Shown piece after piece: positions 8,444 to 19,807 of a stretch of 24,000 bases of DNA; within the stretch, counting starts at the first letter, position 1; every line of letters begins with the position of its first letter. Made by a program: the position numbers and the translations under genes. The notes below the pieces were generated by a model. It searched no databases and had not been told where the DNA came from. It worked only from the letters and a program-made list of their open reading frames with translations. The DNA comes from Parcubacteria group bacterium. Its GTDB lineage: Bacteria; Patescibacteriota; Minisyncoccia; UBA6257; Colwellbacteraceae. The DNA is taken from positions 7,617 to 31,616 of the forward strand of contig JBAZND010000003.1 in the NCBI GenBank assembly GCA_041649415.1, in the 5' to 3' direction.

Positions 8444-8515
8444 TCCCCTGTAGCTCAACGGTAGAGCGACTCCCTGTTAAGGAGTGGGTTGTAGGTTCGA
8501 GTCCTACCGGGGGAG
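8444..8515 (+). tRNA. tRNA-Asn (anticodon GUU)
   Basis: Hand-folded cloverleaf. Acceptor TCCCCTG/CGGGGGA, D arm GCTC-AACGGTA-GAGC and anticodon arm ACTCC-CTGTTAA-GGAGT. T arm GTAGG-TTCGAGT-CCTAC and discriminator G. CCA is not encoded. Confidence 0.9.
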
Positions 8516-8641
8516 CTATCGATTTCTATGAATCCGACCCATCTGCGTCCATAAAGAAGCTAATAAACATGAGGGTTTCAGACGCAGATAGGACGGGGTT
8601 CTGAATCATTCCCATTCGTATCCCAGATAGGAAATAGAACT

Positions 8642-9187
8642 ATGGCAATCAATATCACATATTTCGTTCACGGAACGACAACCGATAACCAGAAAGAAGT
8701 CTCTTCCGGCTGGTCTGATGTCGAACTTTCTGAAAAAGGAATACAGCAATCCGAAGCTCTAAGAGACCAAACCAAGGACAAAAGGTTTGATATAGTTTTC
8801 TGCTCCGACCTTAAAAGAGCAGTTCAATCAGCTAATATCACTTGGGAGGGGATTTATCCCATAATCCAAGATAAAAGACTCCGCGAGTGCAACTACGGAG
8901 ATTATAACGGTAAGTCATCAGAAATCGTTGAACCTCTTCAAGAGAAGATGATTACAGAAAGATTCCCGAACGGCGAAAGCTACGAAGATGTTAAAGCAAA
9001 GATTGCCGACTTTTTGGAATTTTTGAAACAAAATTACGACGGAAAATCCATTGCTCTCGTAGCCCATAAAGCGCCCCAACTAGCATTAGACACATTACTT
9101 AAAGAAAAAACTTGGGAACAAGCTTTTGCCGAAGATTGGAGAAAGACTAAATCTTGGCAGCCTGGATGGGAATATATTTTGAAATAA
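8642..9187 (+). CDS. Histidine phosphatase superfamily (phosphoglycerate mutase-like) protein with a variant active-site motif
   Basis: YFVHGTTTDN aligns with the RHG motif region but lacks the Arg. FCSDLKRAVQSA and the distal VAHKAP His are family-like. Length is 181 aa. Confidence 0.6.
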   Translation: MAINITYFVHGTTTDNQKEVSSGWSDVELSEKGIQQSEALRDQTKDKRFDIVFCSDLKRAVQSANITWEGIYPIIQDKRLRECNYGDYNGKSSEIVEPLQEKMITERFPNGESYEDVKAKIADFLEFLKQNYDGKSIALVAHKAPQLALDTLLKEKTWEQAFAEDWRKTKSWQPGWEYILK

Positions 9188-9191
9188 ATCT

Positions 9192-9653
9192 ATGACCGAT
9201 AAAGACTTTCTAAAACTAGCTATTGAGCAAGCAAAGAACTCTGTTTCTCAAGGAGGTTTTCCCGCGGGAGCTGTGGTTGTAAAAGGTGGAGAAGTTATTT
9301 CTGAAGGAGTCAGCCTCGGCTTCAAGTTAAACGACTTAACCAGTCATGCTGAGATAACCGCCGTAAGGAAAGCATGCGAAAAACTACAGACAACAGATTT
9401 AACGGGAGCTACTCTTTATGCCTCTCTAACACCATGCTTAATGTGCTTTAGCGCTGCTAACTGGGCGAGTATCTCAAGAATAGTCTTTGGTTGCAGAAAG
9501 ACAGACGAGATGGTTAGTAAGGGATATTATGAAGGCGTTACCGATATCACAAAAATTAATCAGGAGAATAGCAAAAAAATAGAACTAGTTTATCTTCCTG
9601 ATTTTGAAGAAGAGATTTTGAGAGTAATAACTGAATGGGAAAAGAATCGGTAG
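9192..9653 (+). CDS. CMP/dCMP-type zinc deaminase (nucleoside/guanine deaminase or TadA-like)
   Basis: HAEITAV (catalytic Glu and zinc ligand) and PCLMC (zinc ligands). Length is 153 aa. Confidence 0.8.
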   Translation: MTDKDFLKLAIEQAKNSVSQGGFPAGAVVVKGGEVISEGVSLGFKLNDLTSHAEITAVRKACEKLQTTDLTGATLYASLTPCLMCFSAANWASISRIVFGCRKTDEMVSKGYYEGVTDITKINQENSKKIELVYLPDFEEEILRVITEWEKNR

Positions 9654-9674
9654 TAATTATAGAAATAAATATTT

Positions 9675-10181
9675 ATGAAACTAATCAAATTAATAAATCC
9701 AGAAAATGTATCTGAGGAAGAAGTAAAGAATTATGAGACACGCGAAGCGGGACGCGCTGTTGTTTTTGACGAAGACGACAAAATAGCACTTCTTTATGTA
9801 CGCCAAGAAGATTATTACAAGCTCCCAGGGGGCGGGATAGAAGACGGAGAAGATGTAAGGGAAGCTCTTAATAGAGAGTGCCTTGAAGAGGCGGGCTGTA
9901 ATATTGATATCACAAATGAATTAGGTTCTATCGTTGAATACAGAAAATCAATGAACCTCAAACAAATTTCTTATTGTTTTATGGCAAAAGTTAAAGGCTC
10001 CAAAGGGGCTCCAAATTTTACCGATGAGGAAGAACAGAGGGGCTTTGAATTGGTCTGGCTATCTTATAAAGAAGCATTGAACGCTTTCGAAAACAGCAAG
10101 ACAACTTTTGATGAAGGAAAATTATATATAATCCCACGAGATAGGGCATTTATAGAAGCGGTAGTCCCTTTCGTTAAATAA
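9675..10181 (+). CDS. NUDIX hydrolase
   Basis: The NUDIX box GGGIEDGEDVREALNRECLEEAGC fits GX5EX7REUXEEXGU. Confidence 0.85.
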   Translation: MKLIKLINPENVSEEEVKNYETREAGRAVVFDEDDKIALLYVRQEDYYKLPGGGIEDGEDVREALNRECLEEAGCNIDITNELGSIVEYRKSMNLKQISYCFMAKVKGSKGAPNFTDEEEQRGFELVWLSYKEALNAFENSKTTFDEGKLYIIPRDRAFIEAVVPFVK

Positions 10182-10192
10182 AATTTTTAATT

Positions 10193-10303
10193 ACACAATA
10201 TCTCTCCCACAAATCATTCATATAACCACTATCTGAAAGGATGGTTATAATATTATTAAGGGATGCGAGCACGTAGGGTAAAATTGCACTATAGGGCGAT
10301 TTT
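10193..10303 (+). promoter_or_regulatory. Conserved intergenic element, copy A (hairpin, then TATAAT, then terminator-like hairpin)
   Basis: 39 of 53 nt are identical in an ungapped alignment of 10193-10245 with 16962-17014, and similarity continues after the TATAAT. Hairpin CTATC-TGAAAG-GATGG lies at 10229-10244 and TATAAT at 10246-10251. Hairpin AAAATTGC/GCGATTTT lies at 10280-10303. Confidence 0.5.
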
Positions 10304-10472
10304 ATCCACCAATTTTTACCATTTCGTAAAAGCTCCTCATATTCGCTAGAATATAGAGGACTTAAAGAAGCTCTTATTAGGCTTAAGCGTAAAGATATAT
10401 CAAATTAACAGGGAAAAGTCCGAGAAAATTAACTCGGACATAGTTTATATTATTTTTTTTATCTATCAAGCT

Positions 10473-10844
10473 ATGATAACTATTAAAACTATTAAAATTG
10501 AAGACATCTGGCAAAAAGATGAAAGAGTTGAAAAATGGAGAAAACTTTTAATTCCCATGATTCAATATGATGTAGAAAAAGCGGATGTAAAATATGATAG
10601 TCAGGATTTAGAACACCAGGTCTTATTCAGACTACTTACGGACGAAAAAATTACAATCCAAAATGCTTTCTATGAACAGAAAGAAATCGTTGTTGAGCGA
10701 ATGAAAATAGCCAAGATCTCCCCAGAAAAGTTGTTTTGTTGGGGAGATGATAGAGAACAAGAAAGTTGGAGAATGGAGTGGGGAAAAGATAAAGAAGAAT
10801 TATTTGCTGTTAGAGGTAAAGAAATTAAAGAAATTATTTTTTAG
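10473..10844 (+). CDS. Hypothetical protein (123 aa), no recognisable motif
   Basis: An ORF in an AT-rich region with a charged, Lys/Glu-rich composition. No recognisable SD or family motif. Support is ORF length and its non-overlapping position only. Confidence 0.4.
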   Translation: MITIKTIKIEDIWQKDERVEKWRKLLIPMIQYDVEKADVKYDSQDLEHQVLFRLLTDEKITIQNAFYEQKEIVVERMKIAKISPEKLFCWGDDREQESWRMEWGKDKEELFAVRGKEIKEIIF

Positions 10845-10947
10845 AGAAATAACATTAAGAAAAGAAAAGGAGATTTGTAAAAATATTATAAAGAATTATC
10901 ACTATATTCATTTATAGAGAAAAATAAATTATTTTATATTGAAAAAG

Positions 10948-11460
10948 ATGATTGAGAAAGAGTTTAAATTCAAAATAGACAATGTGAAAGAGCTGTTTAA
11001 AAAAATAGACGGTGTTAGACCAGAGATCTTTTATTGCAAAGACGAAATATTTGGTAAGGGGCTGGGGTATGAAAAAGAGAAGATCAGAAAAAGGACGATC
11101 ATCTCGCAGAAGGGAACGAAGATAAATTATGAAGGCACTAAATTATTAAAAGTAAAGAATGTTAATCGCGTCAGAGAAAATACATTATCTAAAATCCCCG
11201 TAGGATTCGCCTTGGAGTGTTCCTATGATAAAGTGAGATTTTTATTTAAAAGGGAAAAATATGAAATTACCATAGATATTTATGCTTTCGGTATTTTCTG
11301 CGAGATAGAGGGTGAAGAAAAAACGATAAAAAGAATCGCTAAAAAACTTGGATTCAAAATAGAGGATAATATCCAAACCAACATAGACTCTCTTTATTGT
11401 GAGTGGGCAAAGAAAAATAAAAGGAAAGAACTCTACCACTGGGGATTTGGTAGATTGTAA
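10948..11460 (+). CDS. CYTH-domain protein (triphosphate tunnel metalloenzyme / class IV adenylyl cyclase-like)
   Basis: N-terminal ExExK signature (IEKEFKFKI), IRKRTI, and the C-terminal acidic strand FCEIEGEE. I chose the ATG at 10948 because TATATT at 10935-10940 lies 7 nt upstream. The track uses the TTG at 10939. Confidence 0.6.
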   Translation: MIEKEFKFKIDNVKELFKKIDGVRPEIFYCKDEIFGKGLGYEKEKIRKRTIISQKGTKINYEGTKLLKVKNVNRVRENTLSKIPVGFALECSYDKVRFLFKREKYEITIDIYAFGIFCEIEGEEKTIKRIAKKLGFKIEDNIQTNIDSLYCEWAKKNKRKELYHWGFGRL

Positions 11461-11636
11461 GAATTTTGCATGGTAACGATAGATAAAAATTATGATATGA
11501 GATTTTTTAAAAGCAAATATTCCTTACCTTACAAAATTATTTTAGTTGCGCCATCCTATGACTTATCATCCGGCGAAAAAATATAATGATTACTTCCTTC
11601 GTCCATAATCCAGGTTCGAATTTCCTTGAGTGTGGC

Positions 11637-11687
11637 GAGCCAACTAGAGCTAGCTCAAGATTAGCTGCTTTTGAAGCAAAAACACCT
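11637..11687. repeat. Imperfect direct repeat R1, copy a
   Basis: GAGCCAACTAGAGCTAGCTCAAGATTAGCTGCTTTTGAAGCAAAAACACCT matches 14582-14631 at about 46 of 51 positions by hand alignment, and the first 22 nt are identical. Weaker similarity, including a shared ATCCGGC, extends about 100 nt upstream of both copies. Confidence 0.7.
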
Positions 11688-11820
11688 CTGCAAGATTCAT
11701 CCCTCAAATTAAAGATGATCCAAAAAGGAATAAGGGCAGGCGCTTGAACCAATTCTGAGGCGTTGCGAAGAATTGAGTGAGAGGTGGTTCCCCTTTAGGG
11801 CTGCCAACCTAAAGAATTAG

Positions 11821-11853
11821 TATAAGAAGCCATCAATTGAAGGGCTTCTTATA
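11821..11853 (-). terminator. Hairpin downstream of the minus-strand cassette (possible terminator)
   Basis: TATAAGAAGCC / GGCTTCTTATA 11-bp stem with an 11-nt loop, about 95 nt downstream of the HIT-like stop. The minus-strand trailing sequence is only moderately T-rich (ctaattcttt). Confidence 0.4.
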
Positions 11854-11948
11854 GTTGTAGGGCAACTACCTTTTAAAAATAATTTCTCCCTATCTTTTGT
11901 TCTGCCAAGGCGGAGAGTTTTTATCTGGCTTTTGGGGTACCTGCCAAA

Positions 11949-12599
11949 TTATTTATTCAACTTCAGTTTCTTGAATGTTTCAATTGTTTTTTTAATATCT
12001 GAATAACGATTACTCTTGGAGTCTCTCCATTCATAAGAATTATCATAACCAGCCTGCTGGGCAACAAGTTTTATAAAGCATGATCGGGGAGCATCTTTAA
12101 TAGAATGAGACATATAATAGTGTTTATTCTCAGATCTATACATCCAATAATCTTTGTGCTTCATGTTATGTAAAGAAACTATAGTAGATTGTAATCCCAG
12201 CTCTAATTCATCAAACAACTTTTCTAAATTATCACGGGAAATATTTATAGGAATAATATGTAGGTGTGCATGAGTAATACTGAGTGGATGCCTTCCTTTC
12301 GGTAAGGAACCATGTTCAAAAAATATTGGGTAAGTTCCTATAATTTTATGATATTCATCGCAAATTCTATCTAATAAACCTTCTAGCCTAAATAGATTGC
12401 AAGAATCTAATTCTGCAAACCCATTGATATGTTGTTTTGAGACAACCATTAAATAATTAGGAATGGACATCCCTAATGCTGGTTTAATTAGTACCAAATC
12501 ATTTTCGTAAAGAACTGTATTTTCTGGTTTAGAGCAAAGTTCTTTATCGATTTGATTTACTAAAGAGCAAAACACACAATCTTTCAAAAAGTTCATCAA
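11949..12599 (-). CDS. HIT-superfamily protein with a C-terminal extension (nucleotide hydrolase/transferase-like)
   Basis: CVFCSL near the N-terminus and the histidine triad THAHLHIIP. About 90 aa of extra C-terminal sequence is present. The start overlaps the upstream NUDIX stop by 4 nt. Confidence 0.7.
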   Translation of the reverse strand: MMNFLKDCVFCSLVNQIDKELCSKPENTVLYENDLVLIKPALGMSIPNYLMVVSKQHINGFAELDSCNLFRLEGLLDRICDEYHKIIGTYPIFFEHGSLPKGRHPLSITHAHLHIIPINISRDNLEKLFDELELGLQSTIVSLHNMKHKDYWMYRSENKHYYMSHSIKDAPRSCFIKLVAQQAGYDNSYEWRDSKSNRYSDIKKTIETFKKLKLNK

Positions 12600-13084
12600 T
12601 CCTTTTTGATTATGTGTGTTAAAGTGCCTAATTTGTTGTTCGCCATCAAATCCTTAACAGTGAATGGTCTAAGATCTATTTCTTTCAATTCATCAATAGA
12701 AACCCATTTGATAAATAAGTGTTTTTCTTCACCACGATCGATTTCTATAACTTCTCTGTTAACTGTTTCAATGTCTTCTTCTGGTTCGATAATGTAGTAG
12801 TATTCTACACCATGCTGAACAATTCCTTTTTTCTCATAGAAATTCTCTTGAATACAAAATAGAGTTGCGTTTTTAACAGTGTAATCTAATTCTTCCTTGA
12901 TTTCTCTGGCAACAGCACTAAGAGAATCCTCACCTATTTCAATATGTCCACCTGGAATGTGATAATATGGTGCATTATCCACATTCATAATTAGGAATTT
13001 GTCATTGCGTTTGATAATTCCTACGACTCGATTGTAATAATTATAATCCTCAGTTTTAAATTTAATCTCTTGTTTCATCTTCAA
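12596..13084 (-). CDS. NUDIX hydrolase
   Basis: NUDIX box GGHIEIGEDSLSAVAREIKEELDY. It overlaps both neighbouring genes, which suggests translational coupling. Confidence 0.8.
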   Translation of the reverse strand: MKMKQEIKFKTEDYNYYNRVVGIIKRNDKFLIMNVDNAPYYHIPGGHIEIGEDSLSAVAREIKEELDYTVKNATLFCIQENFYEKKGIVQHGVEYYYIIEPEEDIETVNREVIEIDRGEEKHLFIKWVSIDELKEIDLRPFTVKDLMANNKLGTLTHIIKKD

Positions 13085-13748
13085 TATTTCCTTTTAAAAT
13101 ATTTTCAATTTGTCTTATGTCCATAAAATTATTGGTTGTATCATAAACAATGCTTGCTTTTGCTCCGTTGTTCAGTACGCTATATAAATTCATATGTCGT
13201 AAAATATCAACGCCATACTTTATCCTATTAGAACCAAGTTTTTCCCGTTCCACGAACCTTTCAATAAGAACCGATTCTTCACCCGTTAACATTATAGACA
13301 ATGTTGAATCTTTCCAAATATCTGTTAGTGGTAGTAAAGCATGATTCAATACAATTAAGTCAGGTTTATCAAAAGGACTCCACTTGATTATTTTGCTGTA
13401 TTTAGATATGAAATCTTCATAATCTAAGTCCCTAAAATCGTTTAAAATTTTAAGAATTGTTCTATTCATGTATTCCATTATAACTTTGTACCATTCTATA
13501 TATTCATCAAGAGTTATAATCTTGTCATAAATAACACATCTCAGAAAGTACGTTCTCAAATCTTCATCTTCCTTAATTGGCTCATTGTGAGTAAACTTAA
13601 ACACATTATTTTCGATATCTTCTTCAAAAAACATTGTTCTTAAATACTCTAAGTCCAAAGAAAGACCATTACGCAAAGAAGCAAAGGAATTACACAGTGT
13701 TGTTTTGCCACAACAAGGCAAACCCGCAATACTAATAATTTTTGTCAT
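13062..13748 (-). CDS. P-loop NTPase, putative nucleoside/nucleotide kinase
   Basis: Walker A motif GLPCCGKTT lies 8 aa from the chosen start (MTKIISIAG). AAGGGA lies 5 nt upstream of the ATG at 13748. The track start at 13778 has no RBS. Confidence 0.6.
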   Translation of the reverse strand: MTKIISIAGLPCCGKTTLCNSFASLRNGLSLDLEYLRTMFFEEDIENNVFKFTHNEPIKEDEDLRTYFLRCVIYDKIITLDEYIEWYKVIMEYMNRTILKILNDFRDLDYEDFISKYSKIIKWSPFDKPDLIVLNHALLPLTDIWKDSTLSIMLTGEESVLIERFVEREKLGSNRIKYGVDILRHMNLYSVLNNGAKASIVYDTTNNFMDIRQIENILKGNIEDETRD

Positions 13749-13832
13749 AGAGTCCCTTCTTAATGGATGGTTATTCATTTTACAAGCTATTGTCAGATTG
13801 TTTGAAAAATTATTTAAGGACTATTTTTATGA

Positions 13833-13867
13833 TTTTAAAAAATGTGGGAAGTGGTTACTCACTTCCC
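13833..13867 (-). terminator. Intrinsic terminator or attenuator between the NDK-like and P-loop genes
   Basis: On the minus strand, GGGAAGTG-AGTAAC-CACTTCCC forms an 8-bp stem overlapping the NDK-like stop codon. It is followed by ACATTTTTT. Confidence 0.55.
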
Positions 13868-14377
13868 ATGGTTCCAATCTTGCTTGAGAAGAACAATGAT
13901 AGGTAATGGAACACCAATTCCTTCTTCTCGACATAGAGCCAAAATAGTCGCTGCTCCTTCCGCGTCATCAGGAGTATGCAATCTATTTTCAGCTAGTTTG
14001 TCTTGAAGTGATAGGCCTTTGTAGCCCATCAGGATCAGTTCATCCTTCAAGTGATAGCAAAACCTCTTCCTGATTCCACCCGTATCCATTCTTCCTTTGA
14101 GCTGTCGTAGAACCTCCCAAATATCTGTATTTGTGAGATTCTTGACTACGATAACCATTGAAAGCCCAAATGTGATGGCCTTAACTCTCGAAGAATAAGT
14201 TGGCCCTGCCACTTCCTTTGGATAAATGATATGGGCGACTTCCGGCCTTATTTGCCAGTATTCTTTCCATACTATTTCTAAGCCCCCTTCCTCAAGACAT
14301 CTGATGATGTCATTTTCCAAACCATCCCTGATAGAGTCTGGTTTAAGAATTACTAGTCCATATCGCATTTTTAGCAC
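13859..14377 (-). CDS. Nucleoside diphosphate kinase-like protein
   Basis: GLVILKPD, GIRKRF and NRLHTPDDAEGA align with the NDK motifs LIKPD, GTIRGDF and NxIHGSDSxESA, so the catalytic His is retained. An insertion of about 20 aa precedes the His motif. Confidence 0.6.
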   Translation of the reverse strand: MLKMRYGLVILKPDSIRDGLENDIIRCLEEGGLEIVWKEYWQIRPEVAHIIYPKEVAGPTYSSRVKAITFGLSMVIVVKNLTNTDIWEVLRQLKGRMDTGGIRKRFCYHLKDELILMGYKGLSLQDKLAENRLHTPDDAEGAATILALCREEGIGVPLPIIVLLKQDWNHGK

Positions 14378-14581
14378 CCCCTATGCAAATATCTCGGAGT
14401 GCCCCACACTCCTTTACATCTTTTCATTTTTTAATACAACTTACTTGCTCATAACATAAAATCAAGATAAGGTCAAAGATTAAGGAAAAATAACAGAGTT
14501 AGCCACCATTTATCCCAAATCCGGCACATAGATATACCCCTCTTTTTCTTGTATTATTGTTCTAACGTTGTTTGCAACTCT

Positions 14582-14631
14582 GAGCCAACTAGAGCTAGCT
14601 CAAAATTAGCTATTTTTAATCAAAAACACCT
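14582..14631. repeat. Imperfect direct repeat R1, copy b
   Basis: GAGCCAACTAGAGCTAGCTCAAAATTAGCTATTTTTAATCAAAAACACCT, in the same orientation as 11637-11687. Confidence 0.7.
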
Positions 14632-14721
14632 ATTAGTTAAAGGGGGTTTTGTAGTAAATAAGGACAAACCAAGTATGAACACTACTAAAGAACAGGAACG
14701 AGCGGAACTACATCAAGCCAT

Positions 14722-14750
14722 TTGACAAACACCTAAGAAAGTGCTATTCT
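14722..14750 (+). promoter_or_regulatory. Sigma-70-like promoter upstream of the GC-rich gene
   Basis: TTGACA at 14722-14727, a 17-nt spacer, then TATTCT at 14745-14750. Confidence 0.4.
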
Positions 14751-14806
14751 TAGCTCCGTAAACTTAACAACAAAACAACGCAAACCTCTATTCCCAAAGG
14801 GAATAG

Positions 14807-15436
14807 ATGGCACTGACTAACAGTCAGAGAAAGGAATTCCTTATGAAGTACTCAGAGTTAACCTTAGGCACCGTGGAAGCGGTAGTAAACAAACTCGGTG
14901 GCATGGAGGGGGTACAAGCGTTTCTCCGCGATGAACTCGTTCTGACCAAGAAAACAGGACAGACCTTTCCCCTGCGGCACACCATCAAGCTCGGCACCGA
15001 AGAGACAACCGACGCCTTGAAGGAATCCCTGAAGAAAGCCGGTTGCGATGTCTCCGACTGGGCAAACGACATCATGAACCAGCCCACCTTCACGCTGAGC
15101 AAAAGCGAGAATGAACTGGATCTCGTGGTTTTCTCCCTCGCCGACCTTGGCTTCATCGGAGCCCGCTACAAGAATATCTGTGAGAAGGCCAAAGAGCTGG
15201 GCTTGCAGCTATGTCCTCTCGAAGTCGGACCCCAACTCCGACTGCAGTACGCCGACCAGCCGAAAGGCGAATGGCTCATTATCGCCATGGAGCCGATTGC
15301 CGTTTCGGGTGGCGATCTCGGGGTGTTCGGCGTCGGACGGGGCGACGACGGCGAGCAGTGGCTCAACGGTCACTACGGTCATCCCGGCAGCTTCTGGCGC
15401 AGCAACTACCGCTTCGTGTTTGTGCGTAGCAAGTAG
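14807..15436 (+). CDS. Hypothetical protein encoded by a GC-rich gene, unknown function
   Basis: A 209-aa ORF. Two hand-counted 60-nt lines gave 53% and 58% GC, against about 30-40% in lines from the neighbouring cassette. An 8-bp hairpin (14788-14806) abuts the ATG at 14807. The ATG at 14843, preceded by AAAGGA, is therefore an alternative start. Confidence 0.55.
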   Translation: MALTNSQRKEFLMKYSELTLGTVEAVVNKLGGMEGVQAFLRDELVLTKKTGQTFPLRHTIKLGTEETTDALKESLKKAGCDVSDWANDIMNQPTFTLSKSENELDLVVFSLADLGFIGARYKNICEKAKELGLQLCPLEVGPQLRLQYADQPKGEWLIIAMEPIAVSGGDLGVFGVGRGDDGEQWLNGHYGHPGSFWRSNYRFVFVRSK

Positions 15437-15489
15437 CTTTGACCTTTGCTCTGTGACCCTTGGATCTCTTGGATTCTTAGTCCTTTCAG

Positions 15490-15522
15490 CCCCCTGTCTG
15501 CTTCGACGGACCGGGGGTTTTT
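15490..15522 (+). terminator. Probable rho-independent terminator
   Basis: A CCCCCTGTC ... GACGGACCGGGGG imperfect stem followed by TTTTT, about 55 nt after the stop at 15436. Confidence 0.5.
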
Positions 15523-15709
15523 CGTATCAATTCTTTGAAATACAAATTTAATTAGAGCGAAAGTAGGTGAATTTACGGAAGATTACGGTTTTTTGCCACC
15601 GAACCCAGTATCCATAGGTGCTCAAAGACCGTCGGAATGGTAAGATAAAAAAATCGAAAATATCCTTACAGAGCTTTACCGATTTTGGTTCTGGCTCAAA
15701 GACGCGAGC

Positions 15710-15757
15710 AAATTAAAGAGAGGACGTTAGCGTTCTCTCTTTAATTTTTTCTTTCTT
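15710..15757 (+). terminator. Very strong orphan intrinsic terminator
   Basis: AAATTAAAGAGAGGACG-TTAG-CGTTCTCTCTTTAATTT forms 17 bp with one G-U pair. It is followed by TTTCTTTCTT. There is no annotated + strand ORF between 15437 and 15709. Confidence 0.6.
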
Positions 15758-15801
15758 GAGGTAGGATTCTAACCTCTAAGTATAAAAAAGCGAAAGGTTT
15801 T

Positions 15802-15810
15802 TGTTATAAT
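15802..15810 (+). promoter_or_regulatory. Extended -10 box TGTTATAAT, 8 nt upstream of ATG 15819
   Basis: TG at 15802-15803 and TATAAT at 15805-15810, then aaacacaa and the ATG. No SD is present, giving leaderless or near-leaderless geometry. Confidence 0.45.
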
Positions 15811-15818
15811 AAACACAA

Positions 15819-16883
15819 ATGAGGAAAAAGCTTCTTTGGCTTACGGCAATTGTATTTGTGGTATGGCTTGCCTATAGTTTAACGGTTTCTTTTTTTGGCG
15901 TCCGTGAATCGTCTTTTAGCTGGACGATTATCGCGAAGAATCTCGTTCCACTTGTTCTTCTTACTTCATTATTCGCATATTTGTTAATCAGGGGCAGGGA
16001 ATCGGTTAGTGATATTAAGAATAGGCTTGTTTCTTTATACATACTTGGGGCATCTTTCTTATTTTGGATAGTGAGCCCGATAGAAGACTTCTTTATTTTA
16101 AATATTTCCGGAAAAGAGCTTGCCACTAACTCTATTTTTTATTTAATAGAGGGAACATCCATTAGCGCGATAGGAATAGCCGTTTTCCTCTTATGGTATA
16201 AACCAGTGGGAGACTTTCTTAATAAATATCAGTCAAACATCAAGAGCATAACCAAAGAAGAAGTCATAAAAGTTTCCAATATAGTTTCCAAATTTCCGGT
16301 TAAAACTGCCGTTACGGCTTTATGTCTAAGCGCGGCAGGATATGTGTTAAGTGCTATCAGTTTCTTAATAATCCATCCAGGTTTTTCCCTTGGTCTATCG
16401 CTGAATATCGTTTTGATAGGACTTGCTATGGGGCAGGCAATATTTGCCATTATTTATTTTTTTTCAAGGCGAATTCTCGCCGACATAACGCACATCCTCT
16501 ACAGTTTCGGAGACATAACTTCCCCTAATAAGACGCTCGGCATAAAGTTCAAAATAATGATTTCAGCAGCTTGCCCTGGAGTGTTTTTTGTATCTACCTA
16601 TTTGGCATTATTGTTAAGTTTTTTAGCCAATAGGATAAATTTTTCTCTATTTAGTATGGGAATAGTGCTCAATTCTATCCTGTCGTTCGTAATAATGTAC
16701 ATTATAAGTAGCGGTCTTGTCACCGGATTATTGGACGCGTTAAAAGAAATTAAGAGGGGAATAGAAATTGTGCAGAGTGGAAGTCTGCAGAATCGTATCA
16801 ATGTGAAGACAGGCGATGAAATAGAAAGTGTTGCATATGAATTTAATATAATGACTGATTATTTGGAGAAGAGGTGTAAATAA
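15819..16883 (+). CDS. Polytopic membrane protein ending in a HAMP domain, with no output domain
   Basis: Multiple hydrophobic helices run throughout the protein. The last approximately 50 aa (LLDALKEIKRGIEIVQSGSLQNRINVKTGDEIESVAYEFNIMTDYLEKR) match the HAMP pattern, including the DEIxxLAxxFNxM-like motif. The stop follows immediately. Confidence 0.65.
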   Translation: MRKKLLWLTAIVFVVWLAYSLTVSFFGVRESSFSWTIIAKNLVPLVLLTSLFAYLLIRGRESVSDIKNRLVSLYILGASFLFWIVSPIEDFFILNISGKELATNSIFYLIEGTSISAIGIAVFLLWYKPVGDFLNKYQSNIKSITKEEVIKVSNIVSKFPVKTAVTALCLSAAGYVLSAISFLIIHPGFSLGLSLNIVLIGLAMGQAIFAIIYFFSRRILADITHILYSFGDITSPNKTLGIKFKIMISAACPGVFFVSTYLALLLSFLANRINFSLFSMGIVLNSILSFVIMYIISSGLVTGLLDALKEIKRGIEIVQSGSLQNRINVKTGDEIESVAYEFNIMTDYLEKRCK

Positions 16884-16961
16884 ACTGGCCTATTGAAGCC
16901 TAACTAATAAGTTCTGTTACATCGCTCTATAAAGATAAATTAGGCTATAAAATCTTTTGTC

Positions 16962-17096
16962 ACACAGTATCTATTCTATAAGTCCGCCATATAACTTCCG
17001 TCTGAAAGGATGGCTATAATGCTATCATGGGTGCGGGGCATCGTTTGACGGAATTTGACAAGAACCGAAACAAAAATCGCCTAATGGGCGATTTTT
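16962..17096 (+). promoter_or_regulatory. Conserved intergenic element, copy B, immediately upstream of the P-type ATPase
   Basis: Homologous to 10193-10303. Hairpin CCGTC-TGAAAG-GATGG lies at 16998-17013 and TATAAT at 17015-17020. A B-specific insertion of about 25 nt follows. Terminator hairpin AAAATCGCC/GGCGATTTT lies at 17073-17095 and is followed by T. Confidence 0.5.
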
Positions 17097-17104
17097 GATA
17101 GAAT
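17096..17104 (+). promoter_or_regulatory. Extended -10-like box TGATAGAAT, 6 nt upstream of ATG 17111
   Basis: TG-A-TAGAAT at 17096-17104, then agaact and the ATG. No SD is present. A standard 6-nt distance from the -10 box would place the transcription start on the A of the ATG. Confidence 0.4.
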
Positions 17105-17110
17105 AGAACT

Positions 17111-19807
17111 ATGCAAAAGGATTGGCATTCAATTTCACTTGAAGAGATTTTTTCCCAAACAGAAAGCAAGAAAGAAGGGCTTGCTACTTCTGAAGTAATC
17201 CAAAAATTAAAAGATTTTGGCCGCAATACTCTTCCGCAGGAAAAACCATATTCAAAAATAAAGCTGTTTTTGGGTCAATTCCATAGTCCTCTGATGTATA
17301 TTCTGCTCTTTACGGTTGTTATTTCGTTTCTCTTAAAACACTATTCGGATACGATATTTATCGCTATTGTGTTGCTTATCAACACCTCTGTCGGATTTTA
17401 TCAGGAAAATAAGGCCAATCAATCGCTTCTTGCCCTGAAGAAAATGGTAAAAATCAGAGCGAAAGTTTTGCGGGATAACTACGAAAAAGAAATAGACAGC
17501 GAGGAACTGGTTATCGGCGATATCGTGTTTTTGAATCGCGGCGATAAAGTGCCAGCTGACGGACGCATCATTGAATCGCGGAGATTAAAGATTAACGAGG
17601 CAAGCCTCACGGGAGAATCTCAAGCAGTTGAGAAAAAAGCGGAAGATATTGTTTCGGAACCGACATCGCTCTCTGAAAGAGTAAATTCCGTTTTTATGAG
17701 CACGATTGTCGAGGAGGGGCAGGCAAAGATGATAGTTGCTGCTACCGGGATTAACACAAAAATAGGCGAAGTCGTATCGCTTCTCAAAAGGACCAAGAAG
17801 CGTAAAACTCCGCTTCAGAAAAAGATTGTATATCTTTCAAGATGGGTTGGTGCATTTATTCTTTCCGTTATTGCAGTCGTTTTAATCGAAGGATATTTTC
17901 TTGAAAAGAATTTTGCCGATGTTTTAGTAGCTTCTCTTGCGTTGGCGGTATCTGCTATCCCCGAAGGTCTTTTGCCAGCTATAACCGTTATTATGGTTTT
18001 GGGGATGAGACGCATCTTCAAGCAACGTGGTCTTGTCAGAAAACTTGCTGCTACAGAAACATTGGGGAGCGTAACCGTTATCTGTACAGACAAGACAGGC
18101 ACTCTCACCGAGGGGAAAATGCAAGTGAGCCATATTTTGACAAGCACAAAAGAACTAATGAGTGATAGCATTAACGGGCTTGCCAAAGATATAAATGTTA
18201 ATGGTATTGAATCACATATTTCTGCGCTCAAAATAGCCACCTTAGCCAATGACGCTTTTATTGAAAATCCAGAAGAGGGTTTACGGGAATGGATAGTGCG
18301 GGGCGGGCCAACAGAAAGGGCATTGCTTTTGGCGGGAATGCAGGCGGGTTTAAACAAGCACGAACTAGAAAAACAATATTCAGTATTGGATAAAATCAGT
18401 TTTGAATCTGATTATAAATTTTCTGCCGCATATAATCGCAAAAACGATAAACAAAACACGCTTTATATTATTGGAGCGCCAGAGGAAGTCATAGCCCGTT
18501 GTGCTGACTTGGATATTGACGGAAAAAACGAGAAGCTAGGATCAGTTCAAGCGGATAAATTGATAAATAAATTAGAGGAACTAACCCAAAAAGGCCTACG
18601 AGTTCTTGCCTGCGCCTATAGGGATTATGATAACGAAACAAAATATCAGAACCTTATTGAATTGGTTAATGGATTATCATTAGTCGGTTTCATTGCACTC
18701 AAAGATCCTCTTCGCCAAGATGCCAAAGAATCAATTTTGATTACCAAAAAAGCCGGCATTCGCACAGTCATCGTTACGGGAGACCATAAACTTACCGCCA
18801 AAACCATTGCCGAAGAAATTGGTTTCGAAGTAAAAGCCGAAAACATAATTGAAGGCAAGGAATTGGAAACAATGAGTGAATTTGAATTAAAAGAGAGATC
18901 AAAATATATCTCTATCTACGCTCGCGTTTCGCCTCGCCATAAATTAAGGATTATTGACGCGCTGCAGGCTAACGGGGAAGTGGTTGCGATGATTGGTGAT
19001 GGCGTTAACGATGCTCCAGCTCTTAAATCCGCCGATATTGGAATTGCTGTTGGCTCCGGTACTGATGTAGCGAAGGAAGTAGCCGATTTGGTATTGCTTG
19101 ACGACAATTTAAAAACCGTGGTTAAGGCAATAGAGCAAGGAAGGGTAATTTTTGGAAATATTAGGAAAGTTTTTGTGTATCTAGTAGCGGACGATTTTTC
19201 AGAGCTTTTTTTATTTTTAGCAAGTATGGCAATGGGATTTCCACTTCCGTTATTGCCAGCTCAGATTCTTTGGATAAACCTTGTTGAGGATGGTCTTCCA
19301 GACATCGCCCTTACCACCGAACAAGAAACAAAAGGAGTAATGGATGAAAGACCAAGAGATCCCAAGGAACCGATATTAAATAAGCCGCTTAAAATCTGGA
19401 TGTCCGCCATTTTCTTTATTACCGGCTTGGCGGCATTTCTGTCTTTTTTCTTATTTTGGAAATTGACCGGAGATTTAGACAAAACGCGAACGATAGTCTT
19501 TATCCTAATGTGCGTTGATTCATTGGTTTTTGCCTTCTGTGTTCGCTCATTTAAAAGACCGATTTTCCGAAAAGACATATTTTCCAATCGCTATTTAATT
19601 GGAGCAGTGATCATATCGTTTATTTTGCTCATTGGGGCCATTTATTTGCCACCCTTACAAAAACTCCTAGTCACTCAACCTTTGTTATTGACGGAGTGGC
19701 TAATAATATTCGGTATTAGTTTTGTAGAAATTTTATTGATAGAATTTTTCAAAAAGAGAATTTTTACCAAAGATTATTCAATGAAAATCCGTGTTAAAGA
19801 AACTTAA
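17111..19807 (+). CDS. P-type cation-transporting ATPase (P2 type, Ca2+/cation ATPase-like)
   Basis: Phosphorylation site CTDKTGTLT, TM4 motif IPEGLPA, TGDH and the hinge GDGVNDAPALKSADIGIAVG. Length is 898 aa with about 10 predicted TM segments. Confidence 0.92.
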   Translation: MQKDWHSISLEEIFSQTESKKEGLATSEVIQKLKDFGRNTLPQEKPYSKIKLFLGQFHSPLMYILLFTVVISFLLKHYSDTIFIAIVLLINTSVGFYQENKANQSLLALKKMVKIRAKVLRDNYEKEIDSEELVIGDIVFLNRGDKVPADGRIIESRRLKINEASLTGESQAVEKKAEDIVSEPTSLSERVNSVFMSTIVEEGQAKMIVAATGINTKIGEVVSLLKRTKKRKTPLQKKIVYLSRWVGAFILSVIAVVLIEGYFLEKNFADVLVASLALAVSAIPEGLLPAITVIMVLGMRRIFKQRGLVRKLAATETLGSVTVICTDKTGTLTEGKMQVSHILTSTKELMSDSINGLAKDINVNGIESHISALKIATLANDAFIENPEEGLREWIVRGGPTERALLLAGMQAGLNKHELEKQYSVLDKISFESDYKFSAAYNRKNDKQNTLYIIGAPEEVIARCADLDIDGKNEKLGSVQADKLINKLEELTQKGLRVLACAYRDYDNETKYQNLIELVNGLSLVGFIALKDPLRQDAKESILITKKAGIRTVIVTGDHKLTAKTIAEEIGFEVKAENIIEGKELETMSEFELKERSKYISIYARVSPRHKLRIIDALQANGEVVAMIGDGVNDAPALKSADIGIAVGSGTDVAKEVADLVLLDDNLKTVVKAIEQGRVIFGNIRKVFVYLVADDFSELFLFLASMAMGFPLPLLPAQILWINLVEDGLPDIALTTEQETKGVMDERPRDPKEPILNKPLKIWMSAIFFITGLAAFLSFFLFWKLTGDLDKTRTIVFILMCVDSLVFAFCVRSFKRPIFRKDIFSNRYLIGAVIISFILLIGAIYLPPLQKLLVTQPLLLTEWLIIFGISFVEILLIEFFKKRIFTKDYSMKIRVKET

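What the first reader, a model, noticed from the sequence alone, without database searches (positions are those of the whole stretch)
11637..14631. AT-rich four-gene cassette (NDK-like, P-loop, NUDIX, HIT-like) bracketed by about 50-bp imperfect direct repeats
The repeats at 11637-11687 and 14582-14631 are in the same orientation and match at about 46 of 51 positions, with the first 22 nt identical. Weaker similarity, including a shared ATCCGGC, extends about 100 nt upstream of each copy. They enclose exactly the minus-strand cassette 11949-14377. Its genes overlap each other (4 nt and 23 nt). An internal terminator hairpin sits on the NDK-like stop codon at 13833-13867. Direct repeats flanking a compositionally distinct gene set resemble an insertion or excision footprint, yet no integrase or transposase is present. 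The repeat contains the palindrome GAGCTAGCTC and a conserved AGCTA-N9-TAGCT hairpin. The enzyme set (two kinase-type and two hydrolase/transferase-type activities) could form a closed phosphorylation and dephosphorylation cycle on one unusual nucleotide. Phage base-modification pathways use similar logic.
Basis: partly seen in the sequence, partly recalled or inferred. Interest (0 to 1): 0.75.

Follow-up and report, generated by a model that had tools for sequence, protein, structure and literature searches.

The report
Gene islet inserted beside tRNA-Asn
The two 50-base repeats are copies of the tip of a tRNA-Asn gene plus its downstream hairpin and terminator, duplicated when a roughly 2.9-kb piece of foreign DNA carrying four nucleotide-handling enzymes was inserted at a tRNA-linked hotspot in a Parcubacteria (candidate phyla radiation, CPR) genome; this is a familiar kind of genomic islet, unusual mainly because it carries no integrase.

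Summary
The direct repeats at 11637-11687 and 14582-14631 match at 46 of 51 positions. They flank four minus-strand genes: NDK-like, P-loop kinase, NUDIX and HIT.

The repeat ("D3") is not anonymous. In syntenic relatives it directly follows tRNA-Asn, starting with the tRNA's last bases (GAGCCA) and running through a bulged hairpin into an intrinsic terminator. In the window, a separate 3.1-kb insertion (8517-11640) has pushed this native trailer away from tRNA-Asn (8444-8516).

The left copy is therefore the original tRNA trailer. The right copy is its duplicate on the far side of a ~2.9-kb inserted segment.

The same four genes, at 88-95% nucleotide identity, sit in at least three other unrelated genomic contexts. 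In two of those contexts they are again flanked by direct repeats of different, local, terminator-containing sequence.

So the insertion-footprint reading is largely right. The repeats are duplicated target, not ends of the element, and they lie 205-261 nt outside the genes. D3 also recurs at other module junctions in relatives.

No recombinase is present and the mechanism is unresolved. It is either recombination at the tRNA end by an integrase acting in trans, or "insertion with long target duplication". The enzyme-cycle idea remains untested.

The parts
8444..8516 (+). tRNA-Asn (GTT). It ends ...GGGGGAGC with no encoded CCA. This is the anchor of the variable region.
   Evidence: ARAGORN and Rfam. 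In relatives the same tRNA is followed directly by CAACTAGAG..., which is D3.
8517..11640 (+). A 3.1-kb insertion that is absent from the syntenic relatives L008 and L011. It carries a His-phosphatase, a deaminase, a NUDIX protein, orf123 and orf173. Its last ~100 nt form the 'left-up' arm, which ends ...GGCGAGC.
   Evidence: blastn synteny and alignment. Pfam. An independent ENA contig starts at window position 8512, 5 nt before this junction.
11637..11687 (+). Left copy of repeat D3. This is the native tRNA-Asn trailer: GAGCCA, then the bulged hairpin H1, then the 5' half of terminator H2.
11688..11946 (+). Non-coding spacer that travels with the cassette at this locus. It is 88% identical in L008 and L011. 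It may be a + strand ncRNA ending at the 11900-11915 terminator.
11949..12599 (-). HIT-superfamily protein (HAHLHII motif) with a C-terminal extension. The whole fold resembles CWF19-type tandem HIT domains.
12596..13084 (-). NUDIX hydrolase with an intact Nudix box.
   Evidence: the Nudix box was read directly from the translation.
13062..13778 (-). P-loop (AAA_18) kinase-like protein with Walker A motif GLPCCGKTT.
13845..13868 (-). Terminator hairpin overlapping the NDK-like stop codon. It marks the boundary between the two separately conserved units of the cassette.
13859..14377 (-). NDK-like protein. Database gene calls start at the ATG at 14368, giving 169 aa.
14498..14585 (+). 'R-up' arm: a conserved ~90-nt sequence ending ...CTCTGAGC and joined to the right D3. 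It is also present in L024, L012, L017 and twice in L007.
14582..14657 (+). Right copy of repeat D3 (14582-14631), continuing into a degenerate H2 terminator and the GTAGTAAATAAGG motif, as at uninterrupted tRNA-Asn sites.
10178..10270 (+). D1a arm, ending ...GCGAGC. It is the paralogue of D1b and is followed by a hairpin.
15614..15709 (+). E4 arm, ending ...GCGAGC and followed by the 15710-15747 terminator. In L002, L018 and L009 the same arm is fused to D3.
16947..17039 (+). D1b arm, ending ...GCGGGGC, upstream of the P-type ATPase gene. It marks the right edge of the region that carries arms and D3 elements.

Best explanation
The two repeats are a duplicated insertion target.

**What D3 is.** In this lineage of Parcubacteria (a CPR group), tRNA-Asn is natively followed by a conserved trailer, here called D3. 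The trailer consists of the tRNA's last bases (GAGCCA), a bulged hairpin H1 (ACTAG[AG]CTA ... TAGCTAGT) and an intrinsic terminator H2. This part is shown.

**What happened at this locus.** A ~2.9-kb DNA segment entered the loop of H2. The segment consists of a 260-nt non-coding spacer, the P-loop/NUDIX/HIT operon, a separate NDK-like gene, and a ~200-nt right end containing the R-up arm. After insertion, about 51-55 bp (GAGCCA through ACACCT) is present on both sides. The left copy is the original trailer and the right copy now carries the rest of H2. The structure is shown; the direction of the event is inferred from relatives.

**Later events.** Another 3.1-kb segment (8517-11640) inserted exactly between the tRNA's terminal GAGC and D3. 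This is shown by comparison with L008 and L011. The whole 8.5-kb stretch from tRNA-Asn to 17039 is a head-to-tail mosaic of small modules. Each module ends in an arm that finishes with G(A/G)GC.

**Mechanism (inferred, not shown).** The enzyme that performs the insertion is not encoded here. Two mechanisms fit:
- (a) A tRNA-end-specific recombinase acting in trans, as with cis-mobilisable elements.
- (b) The enzyme-independent 'insertion with long target duplication' described for restriction-modification units in naturally competent bacteria.

**The cargo.** It is a horizontally exchanged set of nucleotide-directed or nucleic-acid-5'-end-directed phosphotransfer and hydrolase enzymes. Its precise substrate is unknown.
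For: 1. D3 abuts tRNA-Asn in L006, L008 and L011, and tRNA-Gln in L016.
2. L008 and L011 are syntenic with the window from PilN to FtsZ to tRNA-Asn. In both, tRNA-Asn runs straight into the homologue of window 11634-11986 and then the HIT-like gene.
3. L006 and L007 show tRNA-Asn, then D3, then an intact H2. This equals the 5' part of the window's left copy joined to the 3' part of its right copy.
4. L024 shares the window's right side (NDK, then R-up, then D3, up to 14650) and then diverges.
5. Nucleotide identity is 88-94% for the module against 69-76% for the adjacent core genes in the same relatives.
6. The four genes recur at 88-95% identity in unrelated contexts (L019/L020, L021/L022, L025-L028).
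7. In L019 and L021 the cassette is again bracketed by direct repeats, here 26/29 and 22/24 matches. These are local, terminator-containing sequences that each occur only twice in their locus, with spacings of 2993 and 3110 nt against 2945 nt in the window. None of 500 shuffles reaches either score.
8. Partial tRNA-Asn 3' fragments of about 41 nt (L001) and about 17 nt (L010, L014, L015) precede other D3 copies. This is what repeated integration at a tRNA predicts.
9. In L001, a SocA/PemK toxin-antitoxin pair sits inside D3 relative to L006, flanked by a 15-nt direct repeat.
10. The one reference genome that carries the 22-mer has exactly three copies. All three are co-oriented on one contig within 31 kb.
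11. Many metagenome contigs, one ENA contig (starting at window 8512) and one Logan contig (ending at 14612) break at or beside D3 or the tRNA junction.
12. Precedents exist for both mechanisms: PMC2853133 and the tycheposon preprint 10.1101/2020.12.28.424599.
Against: - No integrase, transposase or other recombinase was found among the window's ORFs or in the small loci examined.
- No contig shows tRNA-Asn, one D3 and then the window's own right flank (orf209). The 'empty site' is therefore inferred from non-syntenic or unplaceable contigs (L006, L007).
- Junction positions differ between events: at GAGC|, after H1, and inside H2. This fits poorly with a single site-specific enzyme.
- D3 and the arms also look like ordinary promoter and terminator modules, so some D3 copies may have spread together with their genes.
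- The two window copies have diverged (5 differences) and both differ from the family consensus, so the duplication is not recent.
- No significant flanking repeat was found in the older L034 context.
Confidence: 0.55

Rival explanations
1. D3 and the arms are ordinary cis-regulatory modules: a promoter-like arm followed by a leader or terminator hairpin. They are duplicated and dispersed together with the genes they serve. On this view the cassette is bracketed only because one module ends the tRNA-Asn transcription unit and another starts the orf209 unit.
For: - H2 is a canonical intrinsic terminator. Each arm contains a plausible -35/-10 pair, for example TAGATA-17-TATTAT at 14529-14557.
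- Every arm is followed by a hairpin or terminator and precedes a co-oriented gene.
- D3 follows different tRNAs.
Against: - It does not explain the partial tRNA-Asn fragments in front of D3.
- It does not explain the indel bounded exactly by GAGC| on both sides.
- It does not explain why the module is 88-94% identical while core genes are about 70% identical.
- It does not explain the independent direct-repeat bracketing of the same cassette in L019 and L021.
- A reference genome has only three copies, all clustered.
Confidence: 0.2
2. The region is an array of non-autonomous cassettes moved by a dedicated enzyme that cuts after a fixed GAGC motif. That enzyme could be an integron-like system or an IS200/IS605-type (HUH Y1) single-strand transposition system. 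D3 and other junction-proximal hairpins would be left-end structures, and the arms would be right ends. Because every right end regenerates GAGC, cassettes would stack head to tail behind the tRNA.
For: - There is an invariant G(A/G)GC| junction between at least 5 kinds of left partner and at least 7 kinds of right partner.
- All elements are co-oriented.
- A hairpin lies within 0-30 nt of every junction.
- H1 has a 2-nt bulge that is conserved in most copies and removed by a 2-nt insertion in L010.
- Cassette order is permuted in L021.
Against: - No IntI, TnpA or other candidate enzyme was seen.
- H1 (about 36 nt) does not fit attC geometry (by inspection).
- The hairpins on the right side of junctions are unrelated in sequence, so a single enzyme is unlikely.
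- The direct repeats at L019 and L021 are not at GAGC.
- Module C3 begins with 51 nt that duplicate the target. Peel-and-paste transposition does not produce such a duplication.
Confidence: 0.12
3. The repeat is a structured RNA (a riboswitch, a leader or an sRNA) and its two copies are two functional genes.
For: - The right copy folds well on the minus strand (z = -3.2).
- An RNAalifold model pairs the R-up arm with the 5' end of D3.
Against: - No Rfam match, even at E <= 5.
- The + strand folds are no better than shuffles, and the left copy is not significant on the minus strand either.
- There is essentially no covariation.
- In most copies the first six bases are the end of a tRNA.
Confidence: 0.05

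Closest known systems
tRNA-gene-associated genomic islands with att direct repeats. Examples: Asn-tDNA islands of Klebsiella (PMC4891358), ssrA islands of Dehalococcoides (PMC3146451), and Prochlorococcus tycheposons (10.1101/2020.12.28.424599).
   Same: [quoted passage not shown] - Partial tRNA copies are scattered through the island.
- Successive insertions push older modules outward.
- The cargo is accessory genes of atypical composition.
   Different: - No integrase lies in or near the modules.
- The modules are very small (1.1-3.1 kb).
- The repeat covers only the last 6 nt of the tRNA and then about 45 nt of trailer.
- Junction positions vary.
Cis-mobilisable elements (CIMEs): att-flanked islands without recombination genes, reviewed in PMC5704250.
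   Same: The module is flanked by att-like direct repeats, encodes no integrase or excisionase, and lies in tandem with other modules (accretion).
   Different: No cognate integrative and conjugative or mobilizable element (ICE or IME) has been identified, and mobilisation has not been shown.
Insertion with long target duplication (Kobayashi laboratory; Furuta et al. 2010, PMC2853133).
   Same: - A compact gene unit with no mobility genes is inserted with a duplication of tens of bp of local sequence.
- The duplicated sequence often overlaps the 3' end or terminator of the neighbouring gene.
- The repeats differ from site to site.
- The insert has lower GC than its surroundings.
   Different: - It was described for restriction-modification units; here the cargo is four nucleotide-handling enzymes.
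- D3 is not unique in the genome.
- The repeats at L019 and L021 (24-29 bp core) fall below that study's 30-bp threshold unless the weaker extension is counted.
Integron cassette arrays, or clusters of attC sites lacking an integron integrase (CALINs).
   Same: Co-oriented, imperfectly palindromic sites separate small cassettes of diverse accessory function (toxin-antitoxin, restriction-modification, enzymes). Cassette order can be permuted.
   Different: There is no attC R''/L''/L'/R' geometry and no IntI. The cassettes carry their own promoters and can be antisense to the array.

Membership tests
tRNA-targeting integrative island (integrase type) | Lies at a tRNA gene, and the flanking direct repeat contains the tRNA 3' end. 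| tested here: met
   D3 starts with GAGCCA, the tRNA-Asn terminus. It abuts tRNA-Asn in L006, L008 and L011. In the window it is displaced by a further insertion.
tRNA-targeting integrative island (integrase type) | An integrase gene lies inside the element, next to one att site. | tested here: not met
   Between the repeats there are only the four enzymes. No recombinase domain was found in the other window ORFs or in the small loci tested.
tRNA-targeting integrative island (integrase type) | Relatives have an empty site with a single repeat copy. | tested here: inconclusive
   L006 and L007 show tRNA-Asn, one D3 and an intact H2. Their synteny with the window's flanks could not be established, and no contig joins tRNA-Asn and D3 to orf209.
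Insertion with long target duplication (PMC2853133) | Insert under 20 kb, no mobility genes, flanked by a direct repeat over 30 bp. | tested here: met
   The interval is 2.9 kb and the repeat matches at 46 of 51 positions. There are no mobility genes.
Insertion with long target duplication (PMC2853133) | The repeat sequence occurs nowhere else in the genome. | tested here: not met
   D3 recurs at other junctions in relatives, with 3 copies in STB_63 and 2 in L002, L009 and L018. The source genome itself could not be surveyed. The L019 and L021 repeats do occur only twice in their loci.
Integron cassette / attC | attC geometry (R''-L''...L'-R' with RYYYAAC/GTTRRRY, at least 57 bp) and an IntI integrase. 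| tested here: not met
   By inspection, H1 is about 36 nt, only AAC/GTT fits, and the spacers are asymmetric. No integrase was found.
Dispersed repeat (REP or miniature inverted-repeat transposable element, MITE) | High copy number genome-wide, with terminal inverted repeats and a short target duplication. | tested here: not met
   Across 185,579 reference genomes, only three exact copies were found, all in one genome and on one contig. All copies are co-oriented and no inverted copies exist.
Known RNA family (Rfam) | Match to a covariance model. | tested here: not met
   No hit at the gathering threshold or at E <= 5 over 10100-17200. There were none in the related loci except tRNAs and a 16S rRNA.
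Nucleoside diphosphate kinase (PF00334) | Pfam gathering score, the equivalog score, and the catalytic histidine. | tested here: inconclusive
   The Pfam score of 44.9 exceeds the cutoff of 27. The NCBIfam equivalog score is 38.7 against a cutoff of 155. NRLHTPD aligns by eye with NxxHGSD. The protein is divergent and activity has not been tested.
HIT superfamily | HxHxHxx motif and the HIT fold. | tested here: met
   HAHLHII is invariant in 20 homologues. The profile matches solved HIT proteins at E = 1.9e-8. The model (pLDDT 88.8) matches HIT proteins and, over its full length, CWF19-type proteins with TM 0.62-0.68.

The most novel reading that the evidence does not exclude
These Parcubacteria may carry an undescribed cassette-capture platform anchored on the 3' end of tRNA-Asn.

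In this reading, small integrase-less modules of 1-3 kb (toxin-antitoxin pairs, restriction-modification genes, nucleotide enzymes) are joined head to tail at an invariant G(A/G)GC| junction that mimics the tRNA terminus. Each module ends in an 'arm' that regenerates the target for the next insertion. This would be functionally analogous to an integron but built on different sites, and driven by an enzyme not yet identified or by host recombination.

The independent direct-repeat bracketing of the same four genes at three unrelated sites would be the signature of its insertion chemistry.
Probability: 0.2. Interest if true: 0.8.

Novelty: new member of a known kind. Interest (0 to 1): 0.5.

Why it matters
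CPR bacteria have tiny genomes, and how they gain and shuffle accessory genes is poorly understood. This locus gives a concrete, testable example. It shows a tRNA-Asn-linked hotspot where small modules without recombinases are stacked. It also shows one module, a four-enzyme nucleotide-handling set, that has recently moved between lineages and landed with a target duplication at three different sites.

If the insertion mechanism proves to be enzyme-independent or to use a new recombinase, that would bear on gene flow in the whole radiation. If it is an ordinary integrase acting in trans, the finding is a routine genomic islet.

The tight linkage of the P-loop, NUDIX and HIT genes is also a lead for an uncharacterised nucleotide or RNA-end pathway.

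Tried and rejected
- **Known RNA family or riboswitch.** Rfam gave nothing at the gathering threshold or at E <= 5. Folding of the repeats was not significant except for the right copy on the minus strand. RNAalifold on the arm families gave no covariation.
- **Phage attP.** Four exact-pattern scans of viral contigs for D3, E4 and R-up found nothing. The P-loop protein has no viral relative, and the HIT-like protein has only one, at 30% identity.
- **A real tRNA in front of the left copy.** ARAGORN and Rfam found none. The GGTTCGAAT match is shared in register with the other arms and is not a foldable T-arm (by inspection).
- **Integron attC and Xer/dif models.** Rejected on geometry, by inspection.
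- **Empty site for the L019 context.** The closest TrpRS relatives are at most 78% identical and are not syntenic on that side.
- **Direct repeats around the older L034 insertion.** Only a chance-level 16-mer was found.
- **Defence-system assignment.** The PADLOC defence-system models gave only a generic NUDIX candidate (PDC-S07) and a marginal VakA hit.
- **P-loop function by sequence.** Only the Walker-A region matches solved kinases.
- **First look-up of the NDK-like protein from the GTG start.** It failed because database gene calls start at the ATG at 14368.

Full report
**What the window is.** Pfam scans show a small bacterial chromosome segment with Pth, signal peptidase, HisRS, HIT, YqeY, YbeY, FtsA and FtsZ. 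These are followed by tRNA-Asn (8444-8516) and then a run of accessory-looking genes. A protein 100% identical to the HIT-like ORF is named in NCBI as coming from a 'Parcubacteria group bacterium' MAG. The one reference genome that shares the repeat is a Candidatus Colwellbacteria MAG. GC content is 0.41-0.50 in the core part. It falls to 0.29-0.40 from about 9500 to 14500, reaches 0.57 at 15001-15500, and is 0.35-0.38 up to about 17500.

**Check of the observation.** The repeat pair 11637-11687 / 14582-14631 is real: 46 of 51 positions match with one gap, and the first 22 nt are identical. It is far beyond chance. The 22-mer matches only twice even with 3 mismatches allowed, with 0 expected. 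The flank-against-flank local score is 75, against 21.6 +/- 2.3 for shuffles. The four minus-strand genes, their 4-nt and 23-nt overlaps, and the hairpin on the NDK-like stop codon (13845-13868) are all as described. Two details need correcting. The repeats sit 261 nt and 205-214 nt outside the genes. The AT-rich zone is wider than the bracketed interval.

**What the repeat is.**
- A scan of 185,579 reference genomes for the 22-mer hit one genome three times. All three hits are on one 47-kb contig and share one orientation.
- A metagenome scan for a 20-mer gave 13 contigs.
- Aligning all copies defines a module I call D3. It reads GA|GCCA ACTAGAGCTAGCTCAAAATTAGCTAGTTTC, then about 5 nt, then AAAAACACCTCTTAATTAAGGGGTGTTTTT, then GTAGTAAAATA.
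- In other words, D3 is the last bases of a tRNA, a hairpin with a 2-nt bulge (H1), and a canonical intrinsic terminator (H2).
- In L006, L008 and L011, D3 follows tRNA-Asn(GTT) directly. In L016 it follows tRNA-Gln(CTG).
- The repeat is therefore the native 3' tip and trailer of a tRNA gene.

**Synteny.** L008 and L011 are collinear with the window from PilN through FtsZ to tRNA-Asn, at 69-76% nucleotide identity.
- In both, tRNA-Asn runs straight into the homologue of window 11634-11986 (88% identity). L011 then continues into the HIT-like gene at 94% nucleotide and 93% amino-acid identity.
- First consequence: window 8517-11640 (His-phosphatase, deaminase, NUDIX, orf123, orf173) is an insertion. 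It lies exactly between the tRNA's terminal GAGC and CAACTAGAG, and it itself ends in GAGC.
- Second consequence: the left repeat is the original tRNA-Asn trailer.
- An independently assembled ENA contig starts at window 8512, 5 nt before that junction. A Logan contig ends at 14612, inside the right repeat. Six of the 13 metagenome matches lie within about 100 nt of a contig end. All this is expected for a repeated or polymorphic junction.

**Structure of the cassette-bearing segment.**
- At uninterrupted sites (L006, L007) the order is tRNA-Asn, H1, intact H2, then GTAGTAAAATA.
- In the window, L008 and L011, the left copy keeps H1 and the 5' half of H2 (up to ACACCTCT) and then switches to the spacer.
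- The window's right copy has H1 again, then the rest of a degenerate H2 and GTAGTAAATAAGG.
- This is the pattern expected if a segment entered the H2 loop with about 51-55 bp duplicated.
- L024 shares the window's right side (NDK, R-up arm and D3, 89.6% identity up to 14650) and then diverges completely.

**The cassette is mobile on its own.** NDK-like homologues are few (18 clusters). Their contexts show the same four genes at 88-95% nucleotide identity in several places:
- L019/L020: next to TrpRS, in the same gene order as the window.
- L021/L022: after an AMP-binding enzyme and a NUDIX gene, with the order permuted (P-loop, NUDIX, HIT, then NDK).
- L024: the window-type right flank.
- L025-L028: next to a gene with transposase-like helix-turn-helix domains (HTH_32), with the NDK gene frameshifted.

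Homology stops at window 11947 and at 14392-14398. It splits at 13816/13839 into two units, each with its own promoter and terminator. None of the non-window contexts has D3. More distant homologues keep only the P-loop/NUDIX/HIT trio, which in L034-L036 is inserted between rplK and nusG. Others keep only the NUDIX-HIT pair, which in L031-L033 lies next to an HD hydrolase, a nucleobase permease and UPRTase. Decay is visible in some lineages: an internal deletion of the HIT-like gene in L008, a 275-nt insertion in the L011 spacer, and the NDK frameshift in L025-L028.

**An unexpected regularity.** In L019 and L021 the cassette is also bracketed by direct repeats, but of different, local sequence.
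- L019: TAAnAAAAGAAGCCnnTTGATGTTATCGC, 26 of 29 matches, weaker similarity out to about 100 nt, spacing 2993 nt.
- L021: CAAAGGCGnTTTTTTGTTTTAnGG, 22 of 24 matches, spacing 3110 nt.
- Each motif occurs exactly twice in its locus. None of 500 shuffles reaches the observed score, and inverted-orientation controls are at background.
- Both repeats contain terminator hairpins. The two L019 copies keep the loop and have compensating stem changes (by inspection).
- The sequence between these repeats and the conserved genes is specific to each context.
- So three independent landings of the same genes each come with a duplicated, terminator-containing target.
- This matches 'insertion with long target duplication', documented for restriction-modification units without mobility genes, mostly in naturally competent bacteria (PMC2853133).
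- No such repeat is detectable around the older L034 insertion.

**The wider array.** Four families of ~90-nt 'arms' occur in the window: D1a/D1b, left-up, R-up and E4.
- All arms are on the + strand, and all end in G(A/G)GC.
- Each is followed either by D3 or by another hairpin or terminator.
- In other genomes the same arms are fused to D3 (D1 in L018 and L002; E4 in L002, L018 and L009) or to unrelated sequence (R-up in L007).
- The exact junctions in the window are 8516|8517, 10270|10271, 11640|11641, 14585|14586, 15709|15710 and 17039|17040.
- Other D3 copies are preceded by partial tRNA-Asn 3' ends: about 41 nt in L001 (37 of 41 identical, starting in the anticodon loop, not a foldable tRNA) and about 17 nt in L010, L014 and L015.
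- In L001 a SocA/Panacea plus PemK/MazF pair lies inside D3 relative to L006, flanked by the 15-nt repeat ATTAGCTAGTTTCAA.
- Neighbouring genes at D3 sites include a Type III methylase-like ORF (identified by inspection), NYN, HNH, cyclase-like and small membrane proteins.
- The picture is a tRNA-Asn-anchored variable region built from small modules, as in tRNA-linked islands with scattered partial tRNAs and tandem insertions.

**Mechanism.**
- Shown: the repeat is the tRNA tip plus trailer. The left copy is native. Indels in relatives are bounded at D3 or at GAGC. The cassette has been exchanged horizontally. It lands with target duplications.
- Inferred: the insertion chemistry.
- No recombinase is present in the window or in the small loci tested, and no phage carries these sites.
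- I favour target duplication on insertion, produced by a recombinase acting in trans or by the enzyme-independent route, with confidence 0.55.
- The main rival is that D3 and the arms are simply regulatory modules, with incidental bracketing (0.2).
- A dedicated GAGC-cutting cassette system is the most novel reading not excluded (about 0.12-0.2).
- A structured-RNA role for the repeat has no support.

**The enzymes.**
- The NDK-like protein passes Pfam but not the NCBIfam equivalog cutoffs, and it keeps the catalytic-histidine context.
- The P-loop protein matches solved kinases only around Walker A. Its weak best hits are the tRNA kinase PSTK (L-seryl-tRNA(Sec) kinase) and a phage polynucleotide-kinase family.
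- The NUDIX box is intact.
- The HIT protein belongs to the Hint branch by profile. Its confident model (pLDDT 88.8) matches CWF19/Drn1-type tandem HIT domains over its full length.
- Linkage of P-loop, NUDIX and HIT across distant genomes supports a shared pathway. The salvage-gene neighbours in L031 point to nucleotide metabolism, while the family resemblances also allow 5'-end processing of RNA or DNA.

**Verdict.** The insertion reading is partly supported, with a corrected anatomy. This is a new member of a known kind: a tRNA-linked islet with a duplicated target and no integrase. Interest is moderate, raised by the three-site target duplication and by the GAGC-junction array.

Noticed in passing
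window 10178-10270 and 16947-17039: A second pair of direct repeats (D1a and D1b): 85 nt at 74% identity, continuing to a shared ...GCG(A/G)GGC end, each followed by a hairpin. The pair brackets 6.8 kb that contains the finding. In L018 and L002 the same arm is fused directly to D3.
   Followed up: partly
window 15614-15709: The E4 arm is conserved at 83-88% in L002 (two copies), L009, L014, L018 and L024. It contains a hairpin whose stem is kept while its loop varies (GAUUUU versus GUUAAG). It ends in GACGCGAGC(CA). Here it is followed by a strong terminator at 15710-15747; elsewhere it is followed by D3.
   Followed up: partly
window 11688-11925 (+): The non-coding spacer between D3 and the HIT-like gene is 88% identical in L008 and L011, although core genes are only about 70% identical. 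It folds better on the + strand (-70.3 kcal/mol, z = -2.6) than on the minus strand (z = -1.0). It ends at a + strand terminator at 11900-11915. It may be an ncRNA co-transcribed with tRNA-Asn. There is no Rfam match.
   Followed up: partly
window 8510-8520: The window's tRNA-Asn lacks an encoded CCA (GAGC|TATCG) and has a TTCGAGT T-loop, whereas relatives have CCA and TTCGAAT. An independent ENA assembly breaks 5 nt before this junction.
   Followed up: partly
window 14807-15436: orf209 lies in a 57% GC patch that also holds long ORFs in another + strand frame and on the opposite strand. It has no match in Pfam, NCBIfam, PADLOC or PHROGs. It is compositionally foreign even within the variable region.
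   Followed up: no
L034:1675-4107 (also L035 and L036): In another lineage a four-gene block (205-aa protein, AAA_18, NUDIX, HIT) sits between rplK and nusG-secE, interrupting a normally conserved gene cluster.
   Followed up: partly
L001:6641-7948 compared with L006:8110-8270: A SocA/Panacea antitoxin plus PemK/MazF toxin pair is inserted between H1 and H2 of D3 in the Colwellbacteria MAG. It is flanked by the 15-nt direct repeat ATTAGCTAGTTTCAA.
   Followed up: yes
L019:9639-9667 and 12632-12660: The two repeat copies that flank the cassette are terminator hairpins. They share an identical 13-nt loop (TTGATGTTATCGC) and have compensating stem changes (AGCCC/GGGCT versus AAGCCTA/TAGGCTT). Both copies therefore appear to have stayed functional after duplication.
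   Followed up: partly
L025:7857-9343 and L027:253-745: In the lineage whose cassette is 95% identical to the window's, the NDK-like gene is split by a frameshift (59 + 99 aa). Its upstream neighbours are a protein with HTH_28/HTH_32 domains and a 360-aa ORF, which look like a transposase.
   Followed up: no
window 20892-22097: A 401-aa protein combines a T4SS-pilin-like N-terminus, a stretch similar to DNA gyrase/topoisomerase IV subunit A (PF00521), and a C39-like peptidase domain. This is an unusual combination.
   Followed up: no
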